Of a stretch of 64,000 nt of DNA, positions 25,387 to 33,233 are shown piece by piece. Location: positions 58,138,946-58,202,945 of the forward strand of contig NC_092646.1 in NCBI RefSeq assembly GCF_039555335.1. Reading direction: 5' to 3'. The position numbers and the translations under genes are program-made. The first letter of the stretch is position 1. Each line of letters opens with the position of its first letter. Source of the DNA: Amphiura filiformis (lineage: Eukaryota). Under the pieces are notes generated by a model. The model did no database searches. It had not been told where the DNA came from and worked only from the letters and a program-made list of their open reading frames with translations.

Positions 25387-28346
25387 TTATAGTTTTCTCA
25401 TTACCATCCTTAAATTTGACGACCCAAATCAATGTATTTCCGGAGATACCAAGGAAAAAAAATGATGGTTTTTTGTATAATTAATGTTTTGATTATTTAA
25501 TGTACAATTATAATTATATGTTATAAGGTGGTACATCGTTTTCAGGCCTCTTGGCCTTGTGATGTGCCTGCCTTCATCAATACTTGTTAATGTGCAATAA
25601 TTTAATTTACCTCTGTTGTTACATTGTATGCTTTATGAGATTGATGAAAAATAAAAGATTGATTGAATGGTATACCACTTTTTGATTCTGGGTAGGAAAG
25701 AATGAATCCGTGAATTTGGTCCGTTTTACTCCCATAGCGTTCGATTGCGATCAGTTATACTCCGCATGAAATATAGGTCCAAAATAATACTCTCTTTAGA
25801 CCCCCCCCCACACACCCCAATATTGGGTAAAATTTGAAAGATGAAAAGAAAGTAGTAGGAAAAATTTAATTAAAAAAAAAAAACTCATGTCACGGAAGGA
25901 CGGTCGATGATCAGTGAGGGGTGCGTTAGCGAACTCAAAAGTAGTACGAGCGTACAGAAAAGAGAGTTCTCGCGTACGCCAGTTGAGTGCTCGCTCAGAT
26001 GAGGGATGCCGCCAGACCCGAACGCTGTACCGGCGTCATCAGCTGAATTCATACACCCTAGAGGGCACCGGGCACATATAGGGAATATTCCAATCTATGT
26101 ATTTATTAATGTATGGTTAAACTAACCAACTAACGCACCCACCAACGCCTCGGCACTTCGCGCCTGAATGAGTTCGGCCTCGACCCGCATGTGAAAAATC
26201 TTCCTGCCTATATGATTTTAAGTGACCAAGAGGAGGAGGGGTAGCTCCCCCTGTCTTACCCCGATACACTTTTTACGAAAAAGGCGCATAGTGGCGTATC
26301 TTGATTACGTGATCCCAGTAACGCCCCTATGGGATACACTTCTTCGTAAAAAGTGTATCACATAGTGGCGTATCGTGACGCCACTATGTGATGCCTACAT
26401 CAGTGGAAACTTTATGATAGAGACATTGCGATTTCCAAACGTAGACATCGGACGTACGTTGATCTATTCAAAACCACTCTCCTGTATCGAAGCGAGGTCA
26501 CGTATTTAGCTATTTTGGAAGATATTCCACGTGCGAAGTCGACGTAGATACATCGTTGAAAATGCACAAAATTTGTCCATTTCACAATATGTTAAAGACA
26601 GTCAAAGATAATGAACATATGAAGGAAAGTCTAATTATTATTATGATCCTTTTTGTTTGTAACAAATCATTATAATAAAGGTACAGCGATGTGTTAAAAA
26701 TGGATTTATTTTAAACGCAATATTCACACGCAGAGATTGCCCATTGAAATGTGTGTGATACTTTGCGTTGGAAAATGACATTGCGGTTTCCCATTTTGGA
26801 TTCCAACGTAGAATAAAAACGCAGATGGTACGTTGAAATATGCTGATTTGACCTCATGTTTAAGTCCATGCAACGCGCCCAATTTTCAGGACGAAAAAGT
26901 CTCATTTTAAAAGTAAAGTCATGATGTATGTATGTAGTGATCTTTAATCTACCAAAATATATGTTTTTGGGCAACTATAATATTTGTGGAGCACAAAAAA
27001 ACAATTAGGTTTAATCAGCATGTAGGTCAAAATTTTAATCAAAATCAAAAGCGGTCTGTTTGAATTTAGGCAGAGACTCAGCTCACTGTTATTTTTTCAA
27101 TCACTATGCCCTCTATCGACCTAGGTTAGAAGCTGTTAGATTAGATCAAATATAATAGTCTTTATTCTCATCTAGCTGTCTTGTTCTCCTTCGTGACGAA
27201 TGAGCACAATCCAGTCTGGAACCGAGACTAGCAATATTTAACATCGTATTAACGTACGCAAAAACGTACGCGAAAACGTACGTTCCACGTGCTGCGTTTG
27301 GAAAATCGCAATTATGCTGTCAGTTGTTTAATTCTTCATCCCGATACAGCAAACCAGTATAAGTTTAATGACTAATTAAAATTAATTTTCATATGCATTC
27401 ACCAACTGTTCCTAGCCGAGTATCTTCAGTAGCCAGAGCAGGCACATCAGCTAGCCATATCCTTTACTATGTCTTGTTCTCATTGGGTTAGTGGTGATTC
27501 CACCTTAGCCTTCTGCTCATCCATATTGTTGCAAACCTTTCTATGGAGTGGTTTAAACAATAGGCGCTAAAACAGCTGACCACAAAACGCGTATTTGGCT
27601 TCGATACGTAGACGACGCCTTTCTTGTTATTGAAGCGAATGAAGCGCAGCAGTTAACAGACAATATCACGTTTTTTAAACAGACATACACTAAAGCAAAG
27701 CATGAAGAAGTCCTAAGATACTTCAAGAACACACCTCAAAACAAATCATTTTCTGACATACTGCGCACAACAAATTCCTTCTCGTCTGGTTTCGTACGAA
27801 GCGTCGGGAAGTATTTAACTCTCTTCACGCGGGTGTCGACTGCAGACGACATGTTTCAAATTTTTTTTTTTAAATCAAAAATTTCAAAAATGTAAATTTT
27901 CATGACCATATTTGGAATCAGCTTGAAAAATGCATTAAAATGAGTACAAATAAGCCTAGTATTGGTTCAGTAGTTCTTAAGATAGCTCTTGATATTTTGA
28001 GAAAACATTTCAAAACTTTTTTTCCGTTGAAGCGCATGGCTAGCAAGCAGAGCATTAAAAAGAAGCAAAATTACCATAATGACTACATCAAGTTTACTAA
28101 TAACTAATTACAAATGGGGGTTAGGCGGTTTTTGCCCAAAGCAATTGGGATCATTGACAGATAATAAAAAGCGCAGTGATTTATTTTTTTTTGATAGATA
28201 ACTTTTCAGGAAAAAATATGCACCGTGCGCACAAGAATTTGCAATTTGCAATCTAAAATAGGTTAAACTTGTTCTTTTATGGATCAAATGGACATTTAAT
28301 TTACTGAAAAAGTATATGAGAGCTAAATATCCTTTAAATTTTTCAG

Positions 28347-28454
28347 ATGAATGTGAATCCAACCCTTGTCAAAATGGTGGTTTTTGTATAGATGGTGTCA
28401 GCCAGTATAACTGTATCTGCCGAAGTGGATTTTCTGGAACAAGATGCATGACAA
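28347..28454 (+). CDS. Calcium-binding EGF-like domain exon of 108 bp in phase 1-1, encoding (D)[35 protein letters not shown].
   Basis: Acceptor tttaaatttttcag|AT and donor ACAA|GTAAGT. The peptide has the cbEGF signature D-x-D/N-E-C, six Cys and the Asn/Tyr hydroxylation context. The symmetric phase 1 is classical for EGF modules. Confidence 0.85.
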
Positions 28455-28483
28455 GTAAGTACACGCTCATTGCTTTACGGCAT

Positions 28484-28760
28484 GGGGGGAGCGTGGCCTA
28501 GCGGTTATGGCGTTGGATTGTGAATCAAGAGTTCGAATCCCAGGTACGCCTGAGCTTGGCTGGCTCTTTGTGTCCTTGAGCAAGGCACTTCACTCTACTT
28601 GCTTAGTGCTTCGGAAGGCACTTTAAACTGTCGGTCCCGTGTACATGCATATTTTCTCACATTAATGTAGTGTGCACGTTAAAGAACGTCACAGGCTATT
28701 CGAAAAGAGCAGGGGATCATCCCGGTACTGTTGATTGTACTTCAAAAATACACTCATCTA
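28484..28760 (+). mobile_element. tRNA-derived SINE inserted 30 bp downstream of the EGF exon donor.
   Basis: Head gggggagcgtggcctagcggttatggcgttggattgtgaatcaagagttcgaatccc, with D- and T-arm-like motifs, followed by a ~200-bp body. A related minus-strand copy lies at 17895-18195. Confidence 0.5.
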
Positions 28761-28884
28761 CTCTATAGGTTGAATACAAAAGTTAAAAGTAGGAAACTAC
28801 CGTGAAGTATATAAAATTGGGCGAGCTTTCGGCCATAGGCCTTTTTCATAGCCATGATATAATACTTGTGAAAACAAAACATAC

Positions 28885-28990
28885 ACAAGAAAACGCGAGC
28901 GGAAAAGCACTAAAATCGCGAGCGGGGAAGCAAAAAAAACGCGAGCGGGAAAGCACAAAAAACGCGAACGGGGAAGCACAAAAAAACGTG
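28885..28990. repeat. Four tandem units of 27 bp (aaaacgcgagcgg[g/a]aaagcac[t]aaa), probably the 3' UTR repeat of the adjacent Penelope-like fragment.
   Basis: Direct reading. Confidence 0.7.
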
Positions 28991-28996
28991 AAGGGC

Positions 28997-31485: not shown

Positions 31486-32107
31486 GCGAAGTTACGTAAT
31501 AAATCGGATTAACCATAGTAGATGAAAATTTTTGAGCATATAGCGCTGCACTACAAGCAGGTTACACTAATCACCTGTGTATCTGCAATCAATACTGGTC
31601 TTTTCAAAGATACTAATCTTACAGGTGCAAGTGATCAGCATGATATGGTTCAATGCAGAGGTACCGCGTGAACGTATCAGTGCATTGCGGTATAGAGGGT
31701 ATTCATTACTACGTCATTGATCTGATTGCTCATGCATAAAATTCCTCCACATAGGTTGTTTAGCTTAATCGGGAGAGTGACCTCTTGAAATGATGATCAC
31801 AGTTATCTTTGAGTTATTACAGTGAGGCCCACGTACAATGTTCAACACAAAGTGAACAATGCTATAACTTGGAGGACAAACAAACCAACACCGCCAAATT
31901 CAACTTACATGTGTACAACGTGGGAAGCTATGGGGGAATTGAACACTTGTTGTCTGATCATGCATGTGTTTATGGTTCGGGTAGCGGTTACTTAGCAACT
32001 CTCGTTCCGCTTGGGTTTATTGCATACACTCTATATTCAAATATTGTTTTCACCTATTGCTATGGTAGTGAATCCGATTCGATTATTACGTAACTTAGCC
32101 AGCGTAT
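31486..32107. mobile_element. Family-C MITE copy whose arms (31486-31700 and 32035-32107) are separated by ~330 bp of unrelated sequence, suggesting a split by insertion or a recombinant copy.
   Basis: The left arm is tatacgctggcgaagttacgtaataaatcggattaacc. The right arm is ttttcacctattgctatggtagtgaatccgattcgattattacgtaacttagccagcgtat. Confidence 0.5.
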
Positions 32108-32503
32108 GAGGTACTCGTGTGGCTTGCTCGTTTGACCCGACTAAACTCTCTAAATCACAACTGTCCCTATAATTTGGTTCACATCAAGTTTGGTAGTGAC
32201 GTTACACATACGTCACTACGAAACTTGAGATGAACCAAATTATACATACTTAATGCGATTCTGAGGGAGTATGAACTGGGTGTGTTTGTACTCAAATATT
32301 GAGACATAGGCCTATAAAGCAGACACACAAGAAGAATGCTATGAGTTCTATAAAGGAGATCGTAAGGCTTCATATAGATTAAAGTACCACAACCCACGGG
32401 ATCTAACGTTGCCCACCAATGTGCTTTTCAGAGATTTCAGAGGCTCTGGACGGTTAGAGATAGAAGAGATGTGATCATGTATATGACAGCTAAATATCCT
32501 TTA

Positions 32504-32632
32504 ATTTTTCAGATATAGATGAATGTGCTTCTGGTCCTTGTCTAAATGGTGGTAGATGTAGAGATGGTGTCAACCACTATAGCTGTATCTGTCCAAGTGG
32601 ATTTGCTGGAACAAGATGCTCTGTGGAACACG
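32504..32632 (+). CDS. Second calcium-binding EGF-like domain exon of 129 bp in phase 1-1, encoding (D)[39 protein letters not shown].
   Basis: Acceptor cctttaatttttcag|AT and donor ACACG|GTAATG. The exon is ~80% identical in nucleotide sequence to the 28347 exon. The 30 bp upstream of both acceptors (tatatga[g/c]agctaaatatccttta) is conserved, indicating tandem duplication of the exon unit. Confidence 0.85.
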
Positions 32633-32757
32633 GTAATGAGACAAGCGCATTATTGAAGACGAGAAAATAATAAATAATAATAATTTTTAAAAAAACACAC
32701 GGAAAAATAGCCAAAATAGCCTCATATACCAAATGGAACCGATTTACGCTCATTATA

Positions 32758-32891
32758 CTATAGTAGTAGTAGTAGTAGTAGTAGTAGTAGTAGTAGTAGT
32801 AGTAGTAGTAGTAGTAGTAGTAGTAGTAGTGGTAGTAGTAGTAGTAGTAGTAGTAGTAGTAGTAGTAGTAGTAGTAGTAGTAGTAGTAGTA
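32758..32891. repeat. Microsatellite (TAG)n of ~44 units.
   Basis: Direct reading. It produces the poly-Y and poly-V ORFs in the track. Confidence 0.95.
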
Positions 32892-33233
32892 CACTTTAAA
32901 AAAATCTATATGAATGGAAACTTAATAATATGCTATAAAGTTGAATAACATGTGGAACAAGAATCGCAAAACCTATATAAATATAAATAGAAACAAATTC
33001 AAAGTATAGACCTCTGGCAAGGCAACCGTTACTTAAAGTTTCACGGAATACCCTCACTTACGATCATTAAACCGATCATCAGGCGGATAATTTGTCATGA
33101 TTTCAAATTTACAGAAATGTTTATACAAGTATATACATTCTGTGGTGTCGAAAACATGACAAACCATGCCAACCAGAACAGTCTCTACTCCAAAAGTAGT
33201 CGAGAGTGCTCAACCACTAAAAATAGTGGGGGC

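What the first reader, a model, noticed from the sequence alone, without database searches (positions are those of the whole stretch)
28260..32950. Tandemly duplicated EGF exon units, one of which has lost its exon to a fold-back plus Penelope-like insertion
The two cbEGF exons are ~80% identical. They share 30 bp of conserved intron sequence before the acceptor and a conserved block after the donor (acaagcgcattattgaagacgag...ccgatttacgctcattat.ctat...aacttgataatatgctataaagttga). A third copy of this downstream intron block sits at 29765-30237 with no exon in front of it. At the position where the exon should be there is a 354-bp fold-back element (29411-29764) abutting a truncated Penelope-like GIY-YIG ORF (28997-29404). 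This looks like a record of exon-unit duplication followed by TE-mediated exon deletion. It may hint at variable EGF-repeat number among alleles or paralogues.
Basis: seen in the sequence. Interest (0 to 1): 0.6.

Follow-up and report, generated by a model that had tools for sequence, protein, structure and literature searches.

The report
Two EGF exons; no lost third
Two tandemly duplicated EGF-domain exons sit in an animal gene, and the supposed "orphan third intron block" is the first exon's own downstream intron, pushed 1.3 kb away by later transposon insertions, so no exon was lost and the locus is ordinary.

Summary
There are two phase 1-1 EGF exons, E1 at 28347-28454 and E2 at 32513-32632, about 83% identical. 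They share a conserved acceptor flank. A 364-bp fold-back lies at 29405-29768. A 5'-truncated Penelope-like GIY-YIG fragment lies on the minus strand, with its ORF at 28997-29410.

The key claim, a third copy of the downstream intron block, is a miscount. Every landmark of the unit occurs exactly twice in the 64-kb window, in the same order: the acceptor motif, the exon and three block motifs. Exon 1 has no block of its own next to its donor. The block at 29775-30225 is therefore exon 1's block.

That block was separated from the E1 donor by about 1.3 kb of inserted sequence:
- a tRNA-like, SINE-like segment at 28487-28769
- the Penelope fragment at about 28770-29404
- the fold-back

The block itself is split by a 267-bp MITE at 29885-30151. 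No relic of an EGF exon or of an acceptor lies in between. Exon synonymous divergence (dS 0.20) is close to the block's roughly 19% mismatch (about 0.22 after correction, my arithmetic), which fits a single duplication. The fold-back's outer arms (91%) look younger.

Verdict: an ordinary tandem exon duplication followed by intronic transposon insertions. There is no evidence of exon deletion. Interest is low.

The parts
28305..28346 (+). Unit 1: conserved intron flank upstream of the acceptor (polypyrimidine tract and AG)
   Evidence: It aligns with 32472-32512. The 17-mer AGCTAAATATCCTTTAA is exact at 28321 and 32488, and nowhere else at 2 or fewer mismatches.
28347..28454 (+). EGF exon 1 (108 nt, phase 1-1), encoding (D/N)[35 protein letters not shown], with donor gtaagt at 28455
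   Evidence: Pfam EGF E 2.8e-10. All six cysteines are present. tblastn and a cysteine-pattern scan find only two EGF exons in the window.
28455..28486 (+). Intron sequence just after the E1 donor with no counterpart in unit 2. It contains the 9-mer ACGCTCATT, which also occurs in the block.
   Evidence: The 9-mer match is marginal: 6-10 of 500 shuffles reach it. Nothing else in this stretch matches the block.
28487..28769 (+). tRNA-like, SINE-like insertion, with A-box-like TGGCCTAGCGG and B-box-like GAGTTCGAATCCC
   Evidence: Rfam tRNA scores 18.5 bits at 28487-28541, below the gathering score of 29, E 0.4. ARAGORN finds no tRNA. It is absent from unit 2 and has no other copy in the window. 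The right-hand boundary is inferred from where the Penelope-like 3' end begins.
28770..29404 (-). 5'-truncated Penelope-like element. It has a 3' UTR with a conserved module (28773-28861), about 4.4 copies of a 23-bp tandem repeat (28884-28988), and an ORF for the C-terminal GIY-YIG endonuclease (stop codon at 28997-28999).
   Evidence: Pfam GIY-YIG E 4e-5. There are 5467 library proteins with E of 0.001 or less, and the long ones (609-927 aa) match at their C-terminus. Five of the six scanned hit RVT_1 at E of 0.001 or less, three of them above Pfam's cut-off. The ORF is 48% identical to residues 706-809 of P0104. [quoted passage not shown] The 3' module matches copies in L001 and L002.
29405..29768 (.). 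Fold-back element of 364 bp (a long-arm inverted repeat)
   Evidence: Self-inverted blastn match over 29405-29768. Arms 29411-29513 and 29661-29763 are 91% complementary. The DNA fold has z = -26. It is absent from unit 2.
29775..29884 (+). Unit 1 downstream intron block, part A. This is exon 1's own block, displaced about 1.3 kb from the donor.
   Evidence: 81% identical to 32641-32765, E 2e-28. A 31-nt exact run is shared with unit 2.
29885..30151 (.). MITE-like insertion of 267 bp that splits block 1
   Evidence: 23-nt terminal inverted repeats, ACCCAGCAAACACAAAACGTTTT and its complement, 96% complementary. Removing it restores colinearity with unit 2.
30152..30225 (+). Unit 1 downstream intron block, part B
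   Evidence: 79% identical to 32883-32955, E 1e-12. AATATGCTATAAAGTTGA is exact in both units.
32472..32512 (+). Unit 2: conserved acceptor flank
32513..32632 (+). EGF exon 2 (120 nt, phase 1-1), encoding (D/N)[40 protein letters not shown] second AG lies 6 nt downstream at 32517-32518, and using it would give the exon-1-like start.
   Evidence: Pfam EGF E 4.4e-11. EGF_CA scores 23 bits, below its cut-off of 27.
32641..32955 (+). Unit 2 downstream intron block. It starts 8 nt after the donor and is interrupted by a (TAG)44 microsatellite at 32761-32891.
   Evidence: The microsatellite sits at the position where unit 1 has ...gtagta... and the MITE.

Best explanation
A short segment of an animal gene for a mosaic extracellular protein was duplicated in tandem once. 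The segment held about 40 nt of upstream intron, a phase 1-1 EGF exon, and at least about 200 nt of downstream intron. The gene has a HYR-domain exon 2.9 kb downstream on the same strand.

After the duplication, the intron following the first copy collected mobile elements. Between the E1 donor and its conserved downstream block there are now three: a tRNA-like, SINE-like element, a 5'-truncated Penelope-like retroelement on the opposite strand, and a 364-bp fold-back. A 267-bp MITE landed inside the block itself. At the equivalent place in copy 2 a TAG microsatellite expanded.

The block at 29775-30225 is therefore the 3' part of unit 1, not a third unit. Both exons keep intact splice sites, reading frame and cysteines. 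Joining them gives ...TRCMT-N-IDEC..., a normal junction between calcium-binding EGF modules, so both are probably spliced in as adjacent modules.

Shown directly: the copy numbers, the shared order, the divergences and the identities of the elements. Inferred: the order of the insertions and the inclusion of both exons in the transcript.
For: - Each landmark of the unit occurs twice and only twice, in the same order.
- With 28491-29764 and 29885-30151 removed, unit 1 aligns end to end with unit 2.
- The intervening 28457-29404 has no significant similarity to the block. The best local scores are reached by 127-491 of 500 shuffles.
- No EGF relic exists other than the two exons. The next-best tblastn hits have E of 0.08 or worse, and none of them lies at a plausible position.
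- The intervening pieces are independently recognisable as mobile elements: the Penelope-like endonuclease, its 3' module shared with copies on other contigs, the hairpin with z = -26, the tRNA-like head, and the MITE's terminal inverted repeats.
- Exon synonymous divergence (dS 0.20) matches the block-A divergence. That block is 79-81% identical, which I convert to about 0.22 by Jukes-Cantor. A single duplication event predicts this agreement.
- The fold-back's outer arms are 91% complementary. That is less diverged than the two units are from each other, which fits insertion after the duplication.
- Roughly two-thirds of the 4,058-nt E1-E2 intron consists of recognisable repeats (my sum of the coordinates), so insertion is the prevailing process here.
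Against: - I could not identify clean target-site duplications for the SINE-like segment, the Penelope fragment or the fold-back, so their insertion is inferred from absence in unit 2 rather than from an empty-site footprint.
- About 37 nt in unit 1 (28455-28486 plus 29769-29774) have no counterpart in unit 2.
- The 9-mer ACGCTCATT just after the E1 donor also occurs inside the block (6-10 of 500 shuffles reach this score). It could be read as a remnant of a separate block.
- No other haplotype, species or transcript could be retrieved.
Confidence: 0.87

Rival explanations
1. Three exon units once existed. The middle unit lost its acceptor and exon, and unit 1 lost its block, in a deletion linked to the fold-back and Penelope-like insertions. 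That would leave an orphan block at 29775-30225.
For: - The 9-mer ACGCTCATT at 28463-28471 might be a vestige of unit 1's own block (reached by 6-10 of 500 shuffles).
- AATGAG at 29763-29768, just before the block, resembles unit 2's donor context gtAATGAG.
Against: - There are only two copies of every block landmark and two exons.
- No relic of an exon or an acceptor lies in between.
- The ATGAG at 29764-29768 pairs with CTCAT at 29405-29409 as the outermost part of the fold-back stem, so it probably belongs to the element and not to a donor site.
- The model needs one extra duplication plus a deletion whose two breakpoints fall at equivalent positions in two units. That is an unequal crossover, which would leave no scar and would not involve the transposons at all.
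- Equal divergence of the exon pair and the block pair is what a single event predicts.
Confidence: 0.05
2. The "conserved block" is itself a dispersed repeat, such as a transposon fragment, that landed independently downstream of two EGF exons. On this view only the exons and acceptor flanks were duplicated.
For: - The block is AT-rich and carries simple repeats, (AAT)n and a 9-nt duplication.
- The surrounding intron is full of MITEs.
Against: - No further copy exists in the 64-kb window, whereas genuine repeat families here do recur.
- The 23-mer from the block has no match in the metagenome collection.
- The block has the same orientation, order and divergence as the exon pair.
- In unit 2 it starts 8 nt after the donor, contiguous with the exon homology.
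Confidence: 0.03
3. E1 and E2 are mutually exclusive alternative exons, and the identical 31-nt intronic element after each exon acts as a selector that pairs with a docking site.
For: - The exons are tandem duplicates with the same phase and similar length.
- The two blocks share a 31-nt exact run, which is unlikely if mismatches are spread at random (P about 0.0016).
Against: - No complementary site exists on either strand at 3 or fewer mismatches.
- The best RNA duplex between the element and 22-38 kb of the pre-mRNA scores -20.4 kcal/mol, against a shuffled mean of -20.2 (14 of 40 shuffles do as well).
- Splicing E1 to E2 yields a normal N-I-D-E-C junction between calcium-binding EGF modules.
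- Arrays of EGF modules are normally constitutive (established knowledge).
Confidence: 0.04

Closest known systems
Tandem duplication of symmetric phase 1-1 module exons (classical exon duplication and shuffling of EGF modules in animal extracellular proteins)
   Same: The two EGF exons are adjacent, on the same strand, each encoding one module, and both phase 1-1. Homology extends into the flanking intron on both sides, and the exonic and intronic parts are equally diverged.
   Different: Nothing essential differs. The only peculiarity is that one copy's downstream intron homology is now interrupted by nested transposon insertions.
Canonical C-terminal-endonuclease Penelope-like elements (Penelope/Poseidon, Neptune and Nematis type; PMC8557442)
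   Same: [quoted passage not shown] It is heavily 5'-truncated. A related copy (L001) is flanked by 265-bp inverted repeats, like the inverted pseudo-LTR arrangements described for these elements.
   Different: This copy has no RT and is a dead fragment. No hammerhead ribozyme motif was detected in its 3' region. The clade within the Penelope-like elements was not determined.
Fold-back elements and MITEs, and tRNA-derived SINEs, in invertebrate introns
   Same: The fold-back is a long-arm hairpin of 364 bp. The 267-bp element has 23-nt terminal inverted repeats. The SINE-like segment has a tRNA-like head with A-box and B-box motifs.
   Different: No target-site duplications were recognised, there are no other copies in the window, and no family could be assigned because no eukaryotic repeat library was available.

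Membership tests
EGF-like domain (Pfam PF00008); calcium-binding subtype (PF07645) | Six-cysteine pattern and a Pfam EGF score above the curated cut-off | tested here: met
   E1 scores 40.7 bits and E2 43.3 bits against a cut-off of 21.5. Both match the C-x-C spacing scan.
EGF-like domain (Pfam PF00008); calcium-binding subtype (PF07645) | Calcium-binding consensus: D/N-x-D/N-E-C at the N-terminus, C-x-D/N-x4-F/Y-x-C internally, and EGF_CA above its cut-off | tested here: inconclusive
   Both motifs can be read in the sequence: (N)IDEC and [10 protein letters not shown] in E2, (D/N)EC and [10 protein letters not shown] in E1. However, EGF_CA scores 23.0 and 16.7 bits, both below the cut-off of 27.
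Tandem exon duplication | Colinear homology that covers the exon and the flanking intron on both sides, with the same strand and the same phase | tested here: met
Tandem exon duplication | Similar divergence of neutral exon sites and of intron flanks, as expected from a single event | tested here: met
   dS is 0.20, from only about 21 synonymous sites. Block A is 79-81% identical, which I convert to about 0.22 by Jukes-Cantor. The sample is small.
   There are two blocks and two exons.
   No tblastn or motif relic lies in 28455-29774.
Penelope-like element, C-terminal endonuclease type | [quoted passage not shown] | tested here: met
   Pfam GIY-YIG scores 24.2 bits against a cut-off of 22.6. 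The sequence IYAITCRKCASVYIGET...REH...KHF...GH aligns with P0104.
Penelope-like element, C-terminal endonuclease type | A reverse transcriptase upstream of the endonuclease in the same ORF | tested here: not met
   This copy is truncated at about 29404 and has no RT. Of the six long homologues scanned (609-927 aa), five hit RVT_1 at E of 0.001 or less upstream of the C-terminal GIY-YIG, three of them above Pfam's cut-off. The window copy is therefore a fragment of such an element, not a complete one.
Penelope-like element, C-terminal endonuclease type | Pseudo-LTRs, or tandem or inverted terminal arrangements | tested here: inconclusive
   The related copy in L001 has 265-bp inverted repeats flanking the ORF fragment. 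In the window, the similarity between the fold-back terminus and the 3' module is not significant (59-72 of 1000 shuffles reach it).
Penelope-like element, C-terminal endonuclease type | A hammerhead ribozyme motif in the pseudo-LTR | tested here: not met
   No Rfam hammerhead match at E of 1 or less over 27500-33500, nor at E of 10 or less over 28470-29000. Some Penelope-like clades lack canonical hammerheads (PMC8557442).
tRNA-derived SINE | A tRNA-related head with internal polymerase III promoter boxes A and B | tested here: inconclusive
   Box-like motifs can be read in the sequence. The Rfam tRNA score is 18.5 bits against a gathering score of 29. ARAGORN finds nothing.
tRNA-derived SINE | Many dispersed copies and flanking target-site duplications | tested here: not met
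   No other copy exists in the window. A 20-mer from its core has no match in the metagenome contigs. No target-site duplication was recognised. The source genome itself could not be searched.
Fold-back element or MITE | Long terminal inverted repeats that form a stable hairpin | tested here: met

The most novel reading that the evidence does not exclude
The 31-nt stretch ACAAGCGCATTATTGAAGACGAGAAAATAAT is identical in both units, although the rest of the block is 20-25% diverged. It could be a constrained intronic splicing element that normally sits 8 nt from the donor. In unit 1 the transposon cluster has moved it 1.3 kb away, which might weaken or make facultative the inclusion of EGF exon 1. 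That would produce isoforms or alleles with variable EGF number through splicing rather than through deletion.
Probability: 0.08. Interest if true: 0.3.

Novelty: already known. Interest (0 to 1): 0.1.

Why it matters
It matters little beyond annotation. The locus is a clean, small example of how EGF-module arrays grow by tandem duplication of a phase 1-1 exon with its flanking intron, and of how later transposon insertions can break up the intronic homology.

The practical lesson is for pattern-based scans. A displaced intron block can look like an "orphan" repeat unit. Copies of every landmark should be counted before a loss event is inferred. Had a third unit with an exon replaced by a transposon been real, it would have been a modestly interesting record of domain-number turnover. 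The evidence does not support that.

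Tried and rejected
- **Other haplotypes or assemblies.** I looked up two window ORFs by exact sequence, 36923-37333 and 28316-28501. Neither is on record.
- **Annotated gene.** A homology search with the joined EGF pair returned only four distant proteins from ENA at 52-58% identity, with no gene model for this locus.
- **Metagenome scans.** Exact-pattern scans for the conserved 23-mer of the block and for a 20-mer from the SINE-like core both found nothing.
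- **Fold-back as an inverted pseudo-LTR of the Penelope fragment.** A 23-nt resemblance, TATGAA..GGC....GGCCGAA, lies at the fold-back termini. It is not significant (59-72 of 1000 shuffles reach it), so I rejected the idea as unsupported.
- **Hammerhead ribozyme in the Penelope-like 3' module.** None was found.
- **Docking and selector pairing for mutually exclusive splicing.** The signal does not exceed shuffled controls.
- **A remnant of unit 1's own block next to the E1 donor.** Only a marginal 9-mer turned up.
- **Wider homology between the inter-unit spacer and the flanks of unit 2.** Only a shared MITE family matched.
- **Frame-wide Pfam scan by DNA reference.** I scanned selected open frames instead.
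- **Target-site duplications.** I looked by eye and with the repeat finder and found none convincing.

Full report
**What is in the sequence.** The window is AT-rich eukaryotic DNA (35-44% GC) packed with transposon-like repeats. On the + strand there are exactly two EGF-module exons.
- E1 is 28347-28454 (108 nt), with acceptor ...tttaaatttttcag|AT and donor CAA|gtaagt.
- E2 is 32513-32632 (120 nt), with acceptor ...tttaatttttcag|AT and donor ACG|gtaatg.

Both are phase 1-1 and keep six cysteines. Both exceed Pfam EGF's cut-off, at E 2.8e-10 and 4.4e-11. The calcium-binding motifs can be read in both, but EGF_CA stays below its cut-off. A cysteine-pattern scan and a permissive tblastn find no other EGF exon or relic anywhere in the 64 kb. 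The next-best hits have E of 0.08 or worse.

**Gene context.** On the same strand, the C-terminal half of a HYR domain lies within 35404-35691 (Pfam E 2.2e-5). An SRCR exon lies within 6286-6699 (E 5.9e-24). The exons therefore belong to a gene for a mosaic extracellular protein.

**Checking the repeat claim.** A sensitive self-blastn of 28000-33400 gives three colinear matches on the same strand:
- 28312-28447 vs 32479-32619: acceptor flank plus exon, 82%, E 5e-36
- 29775-29885 vs 32641-32765: 81%, E 2e-28
- 30150-30225 vs 32883-32955: 79%, E 1e-12

Its count is not. ACAAGCGCATTATTGAAGACGAG occurs twice, at 29775 and 32641. CCGATTTACGCTCATTAT occurs twice, at 29859 and 32739. AATATGCTATAAAGTTGA occurs twice, at 30197 and 32927. 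The acceptor motif AGCTAAATATCCTTTAA occurs twice, at 28321 and 32488, plus one chance-level 3-mismatch match at 15844.

So there are two acceptor-plus-exon pieces and two blocks, in the order [exon 1]...[block]...[exon 2][block]. Exon 1 has no block of its own. Local alignment of 28457-29404 against either block scores no better than shuffled sequence (127-491 of 500 shuffles reach the observed score). The only exception is a 9-mer, ACGCTCATT, at 28463-28471 (6-10 of 500 shuffles).

The block at 29775 is the second copy, not a third. The simplest assignment is that it is exon 1's own downstream intron. When 28491-29764 and 29885-30151 are removed, unit 1 aligns with unit 2 from the acceptor flank through to the end of the block.

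**What lies between exon 1 and its block.**
1. *A SINE-like segment, 28487-28769.* It opens with a tRNA-like head. Rfam tRNA scores 18.5 bits, which is below the gathering score, E 0.4. A-box-like and B-box-like motifs can be read in the sequence. I call it SINE-like, not a proven SINE.
2. *A Penelope-like fragment on the minus strand, about 28770-29404.*
   - A 137-codon open frame (28997-29410) has a GIY-YIG domain.
   - An exhaustive profile search found 5467 relatives. The long ones (609-927 aa) match at their extreme C-terminus. Five of the six scanned hit RVT_1 at E of 0.001 or less upstream of GIY-YIG, three of them above Pfam's cut-off.
   - The fragment is 48% identical to residues 706-809 of one such protein. 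[quoted passage not shown]
   - Downstream of its stop codon lie about 4.4 copies of a 23-bp tandem repeat. There is also a conserved 3' module at 28773-28861 that recurs next to related ORF fragments on two ENA contigs. In one of those contigs the ORF fragment is flanked by 265-bp inverted repeats, a typical Penelope-like arrangement (PMC8557442).
   - No hammerhead ribozyme was detected.
3. *A fold-back, 29405-29768.* Its outer arms are 91% complementary. The DNA fold gives -127.8 kcal/mol, z = -26. The AATGAG that seemed to extend the block's homology up to a donor site is, for its last five bases, the outermost part of this hairpin. ATGAG at 29764-29768 pairs with CTCAT at 29405-29409.
4. 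*A MITE inside the block, 29885-30151.* This 267-bp element has 23-nt terminal inverted repeats. At the same position unit 2 has a (TAG)44 microsatellite.

The rest of the E1-E2 intron also holds repeats. One MITE family has copies at 30236-30580, 34242-34424 and 53217-53558. There is a 495-bp fold-back at 30950-31444. Another repeat has copies at 6.8, 9 and 19-21 kb. By my sum of these coordinates, roughly two-thirds of the 4,058-nt intron is recognisable repeat.

**History and mechanism.**
- *One duplication event.* Synonymous divergence between the exons is dS 0.20, from 3.7 differences over 20.8 sites. Block A is 79-81% identical, which I convert to about 0.22 by Jukes-Cantor. These agree, as expected if the exon and the block were copied together.
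- *Insertions came later.* The fold-back's outer arms differ by only 9%, and none of the inserted elements is present in unit 2. This fits insertion after the duplication.
- *The order of the three insertions is unresolved.* I could not resolve it, and I found no convincing target-site duplications. This is the main weakness of the account.
- *Why the three-unit history is unsupported.* It needs an extra duplication plus a deletion whose breakpoints sit at equivalent positions in two units, just after the donor in each. That is an unequal crossover. Such an event leaves no scar and needs no transposon, so the sequence holds no record of it.

**Function.** Both exons have intact acceptors, donors and reading frames. 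Joining E1 to E2 creates ...[15 protein letters not shown]..., the normal N/D-x-D-E-C start of a calcium-binding EGF module. I therefore infer that both exons are included as adjacent modules. dN/dS is about 1 over 33 codons, which is too small a sample to interpret.

**One small oddity.** The first 31 nt of the block are identical in the two units, which is unlikely if mismatches are spread at random (P about 0.0016). This could reflect a constrained splicing element or a local gene conversion. I tested whether it could be a selector for mutually exclusive splicing. No complementary partner exists, and duplex energies match those of shuffled controls.

**Limits.** No other haplotype, orthologue, transcript or repeat library for the source species could be reached. 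The boundaries of the SINE-like and Penelope-like pieces are good to about 5 nt.

**Verdict.** The interpretation as tandem exon duplication is supported. The interpretation as exon loss through a fold-back plus Penelope insertion is not. This is an ordinary, already understood kind of locus.

Noticed in passing
window 35404-35691 (+): An open frame contains the C-terminal half of a HYR domain (Pfam E 2.2e-5), 2.9 kb downstream of EGF exon 2 on the same strand. This suggests an EGF-EGF-HYR mosaic gene.
   Followed up: partly
window 6286-6699 (+): A complete SRCR-domain exon (Pfam E 5.9e-24) lies 22 kb upstream on the same strand. It is unknown whether it belongs to the same gene.
   Followed up: partly
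window 36923-37330 (+): A 136-codon open frame (..FPWAGLTPPYGYKGIRGGYVYILAADYY..) has no Pfam hit at E of 0.1 or less and no meaningful PDB sequence hit. It may be a coding exon of an uncharacterised domain.
   Followed up: partly
window 27557-27892 (+): An open frame with a reverse-transcriptase-like RYVDD motif lies just upstream of exon 1. It has no Pfam hit at E of 1 or less and is probably another decayed retroelement fragment.
   Followed up: no
window 29775-29805 and 32641-32671: A 31-nt exact run is shared by the two intron blocks although the rest is 20-25% diverged (P about 0.0016). No complementary partner was found. It may be a splicing element or a gene-conversion tract.
   Followed up: partly
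window 30236-30580, 34242-34424, 53217-53558: A MITE-like family at 92-93% identity with about 26-nt terminal inverted repeats. The copy at 30236 begins right where block 1 ends.
   Followed up: partly
window 30950-31444; 32168-32244; 33237-33349: Three further palindromic or fold-back elements, with arm identities of 74%, 83% and 94%. The last one gives sub-threshold Rfam miRNA-precursor hits that merely reflect its hairpin shape.
   Followed up: no
window 31473-31694 and 32029-32107: A repeat family has copies at about 6.8, 9.0-9.2 and 19.6-21.3 kb. The two pieces are inverted relative to each other, so they may be the ends of one roughly 635-bp element.
   Followed up: no
window 32761-32891: A (TAG)44 microsatellite, 98% pure, lies in block 2 at the position where block 1 has ..gtagta.. 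and the MITE insertion.
   Followed up: yes
L001 5747-6853 (ENA ERZ25070167 contig): A related Penelope-like endonuclease ORF fragment is flanked by 265-bp inverted repeats at 92% identity. The roughly 100-bp core of these repeats, ..TGGCTTGAAAAAGGCCTATGGCCGAAA.., is conserved across four copies including the window's, but it is not a recognisable hammerhead.
   Followed up: partly
window 32513-32520: Two AG dinucleotides lie 6 nt apart at the E2 acceptor (cag|atatag|atgaatgt). Using the downstream one would remove two codons (Ile-Asp) and give the exon-1-like start.
   Followed up: no
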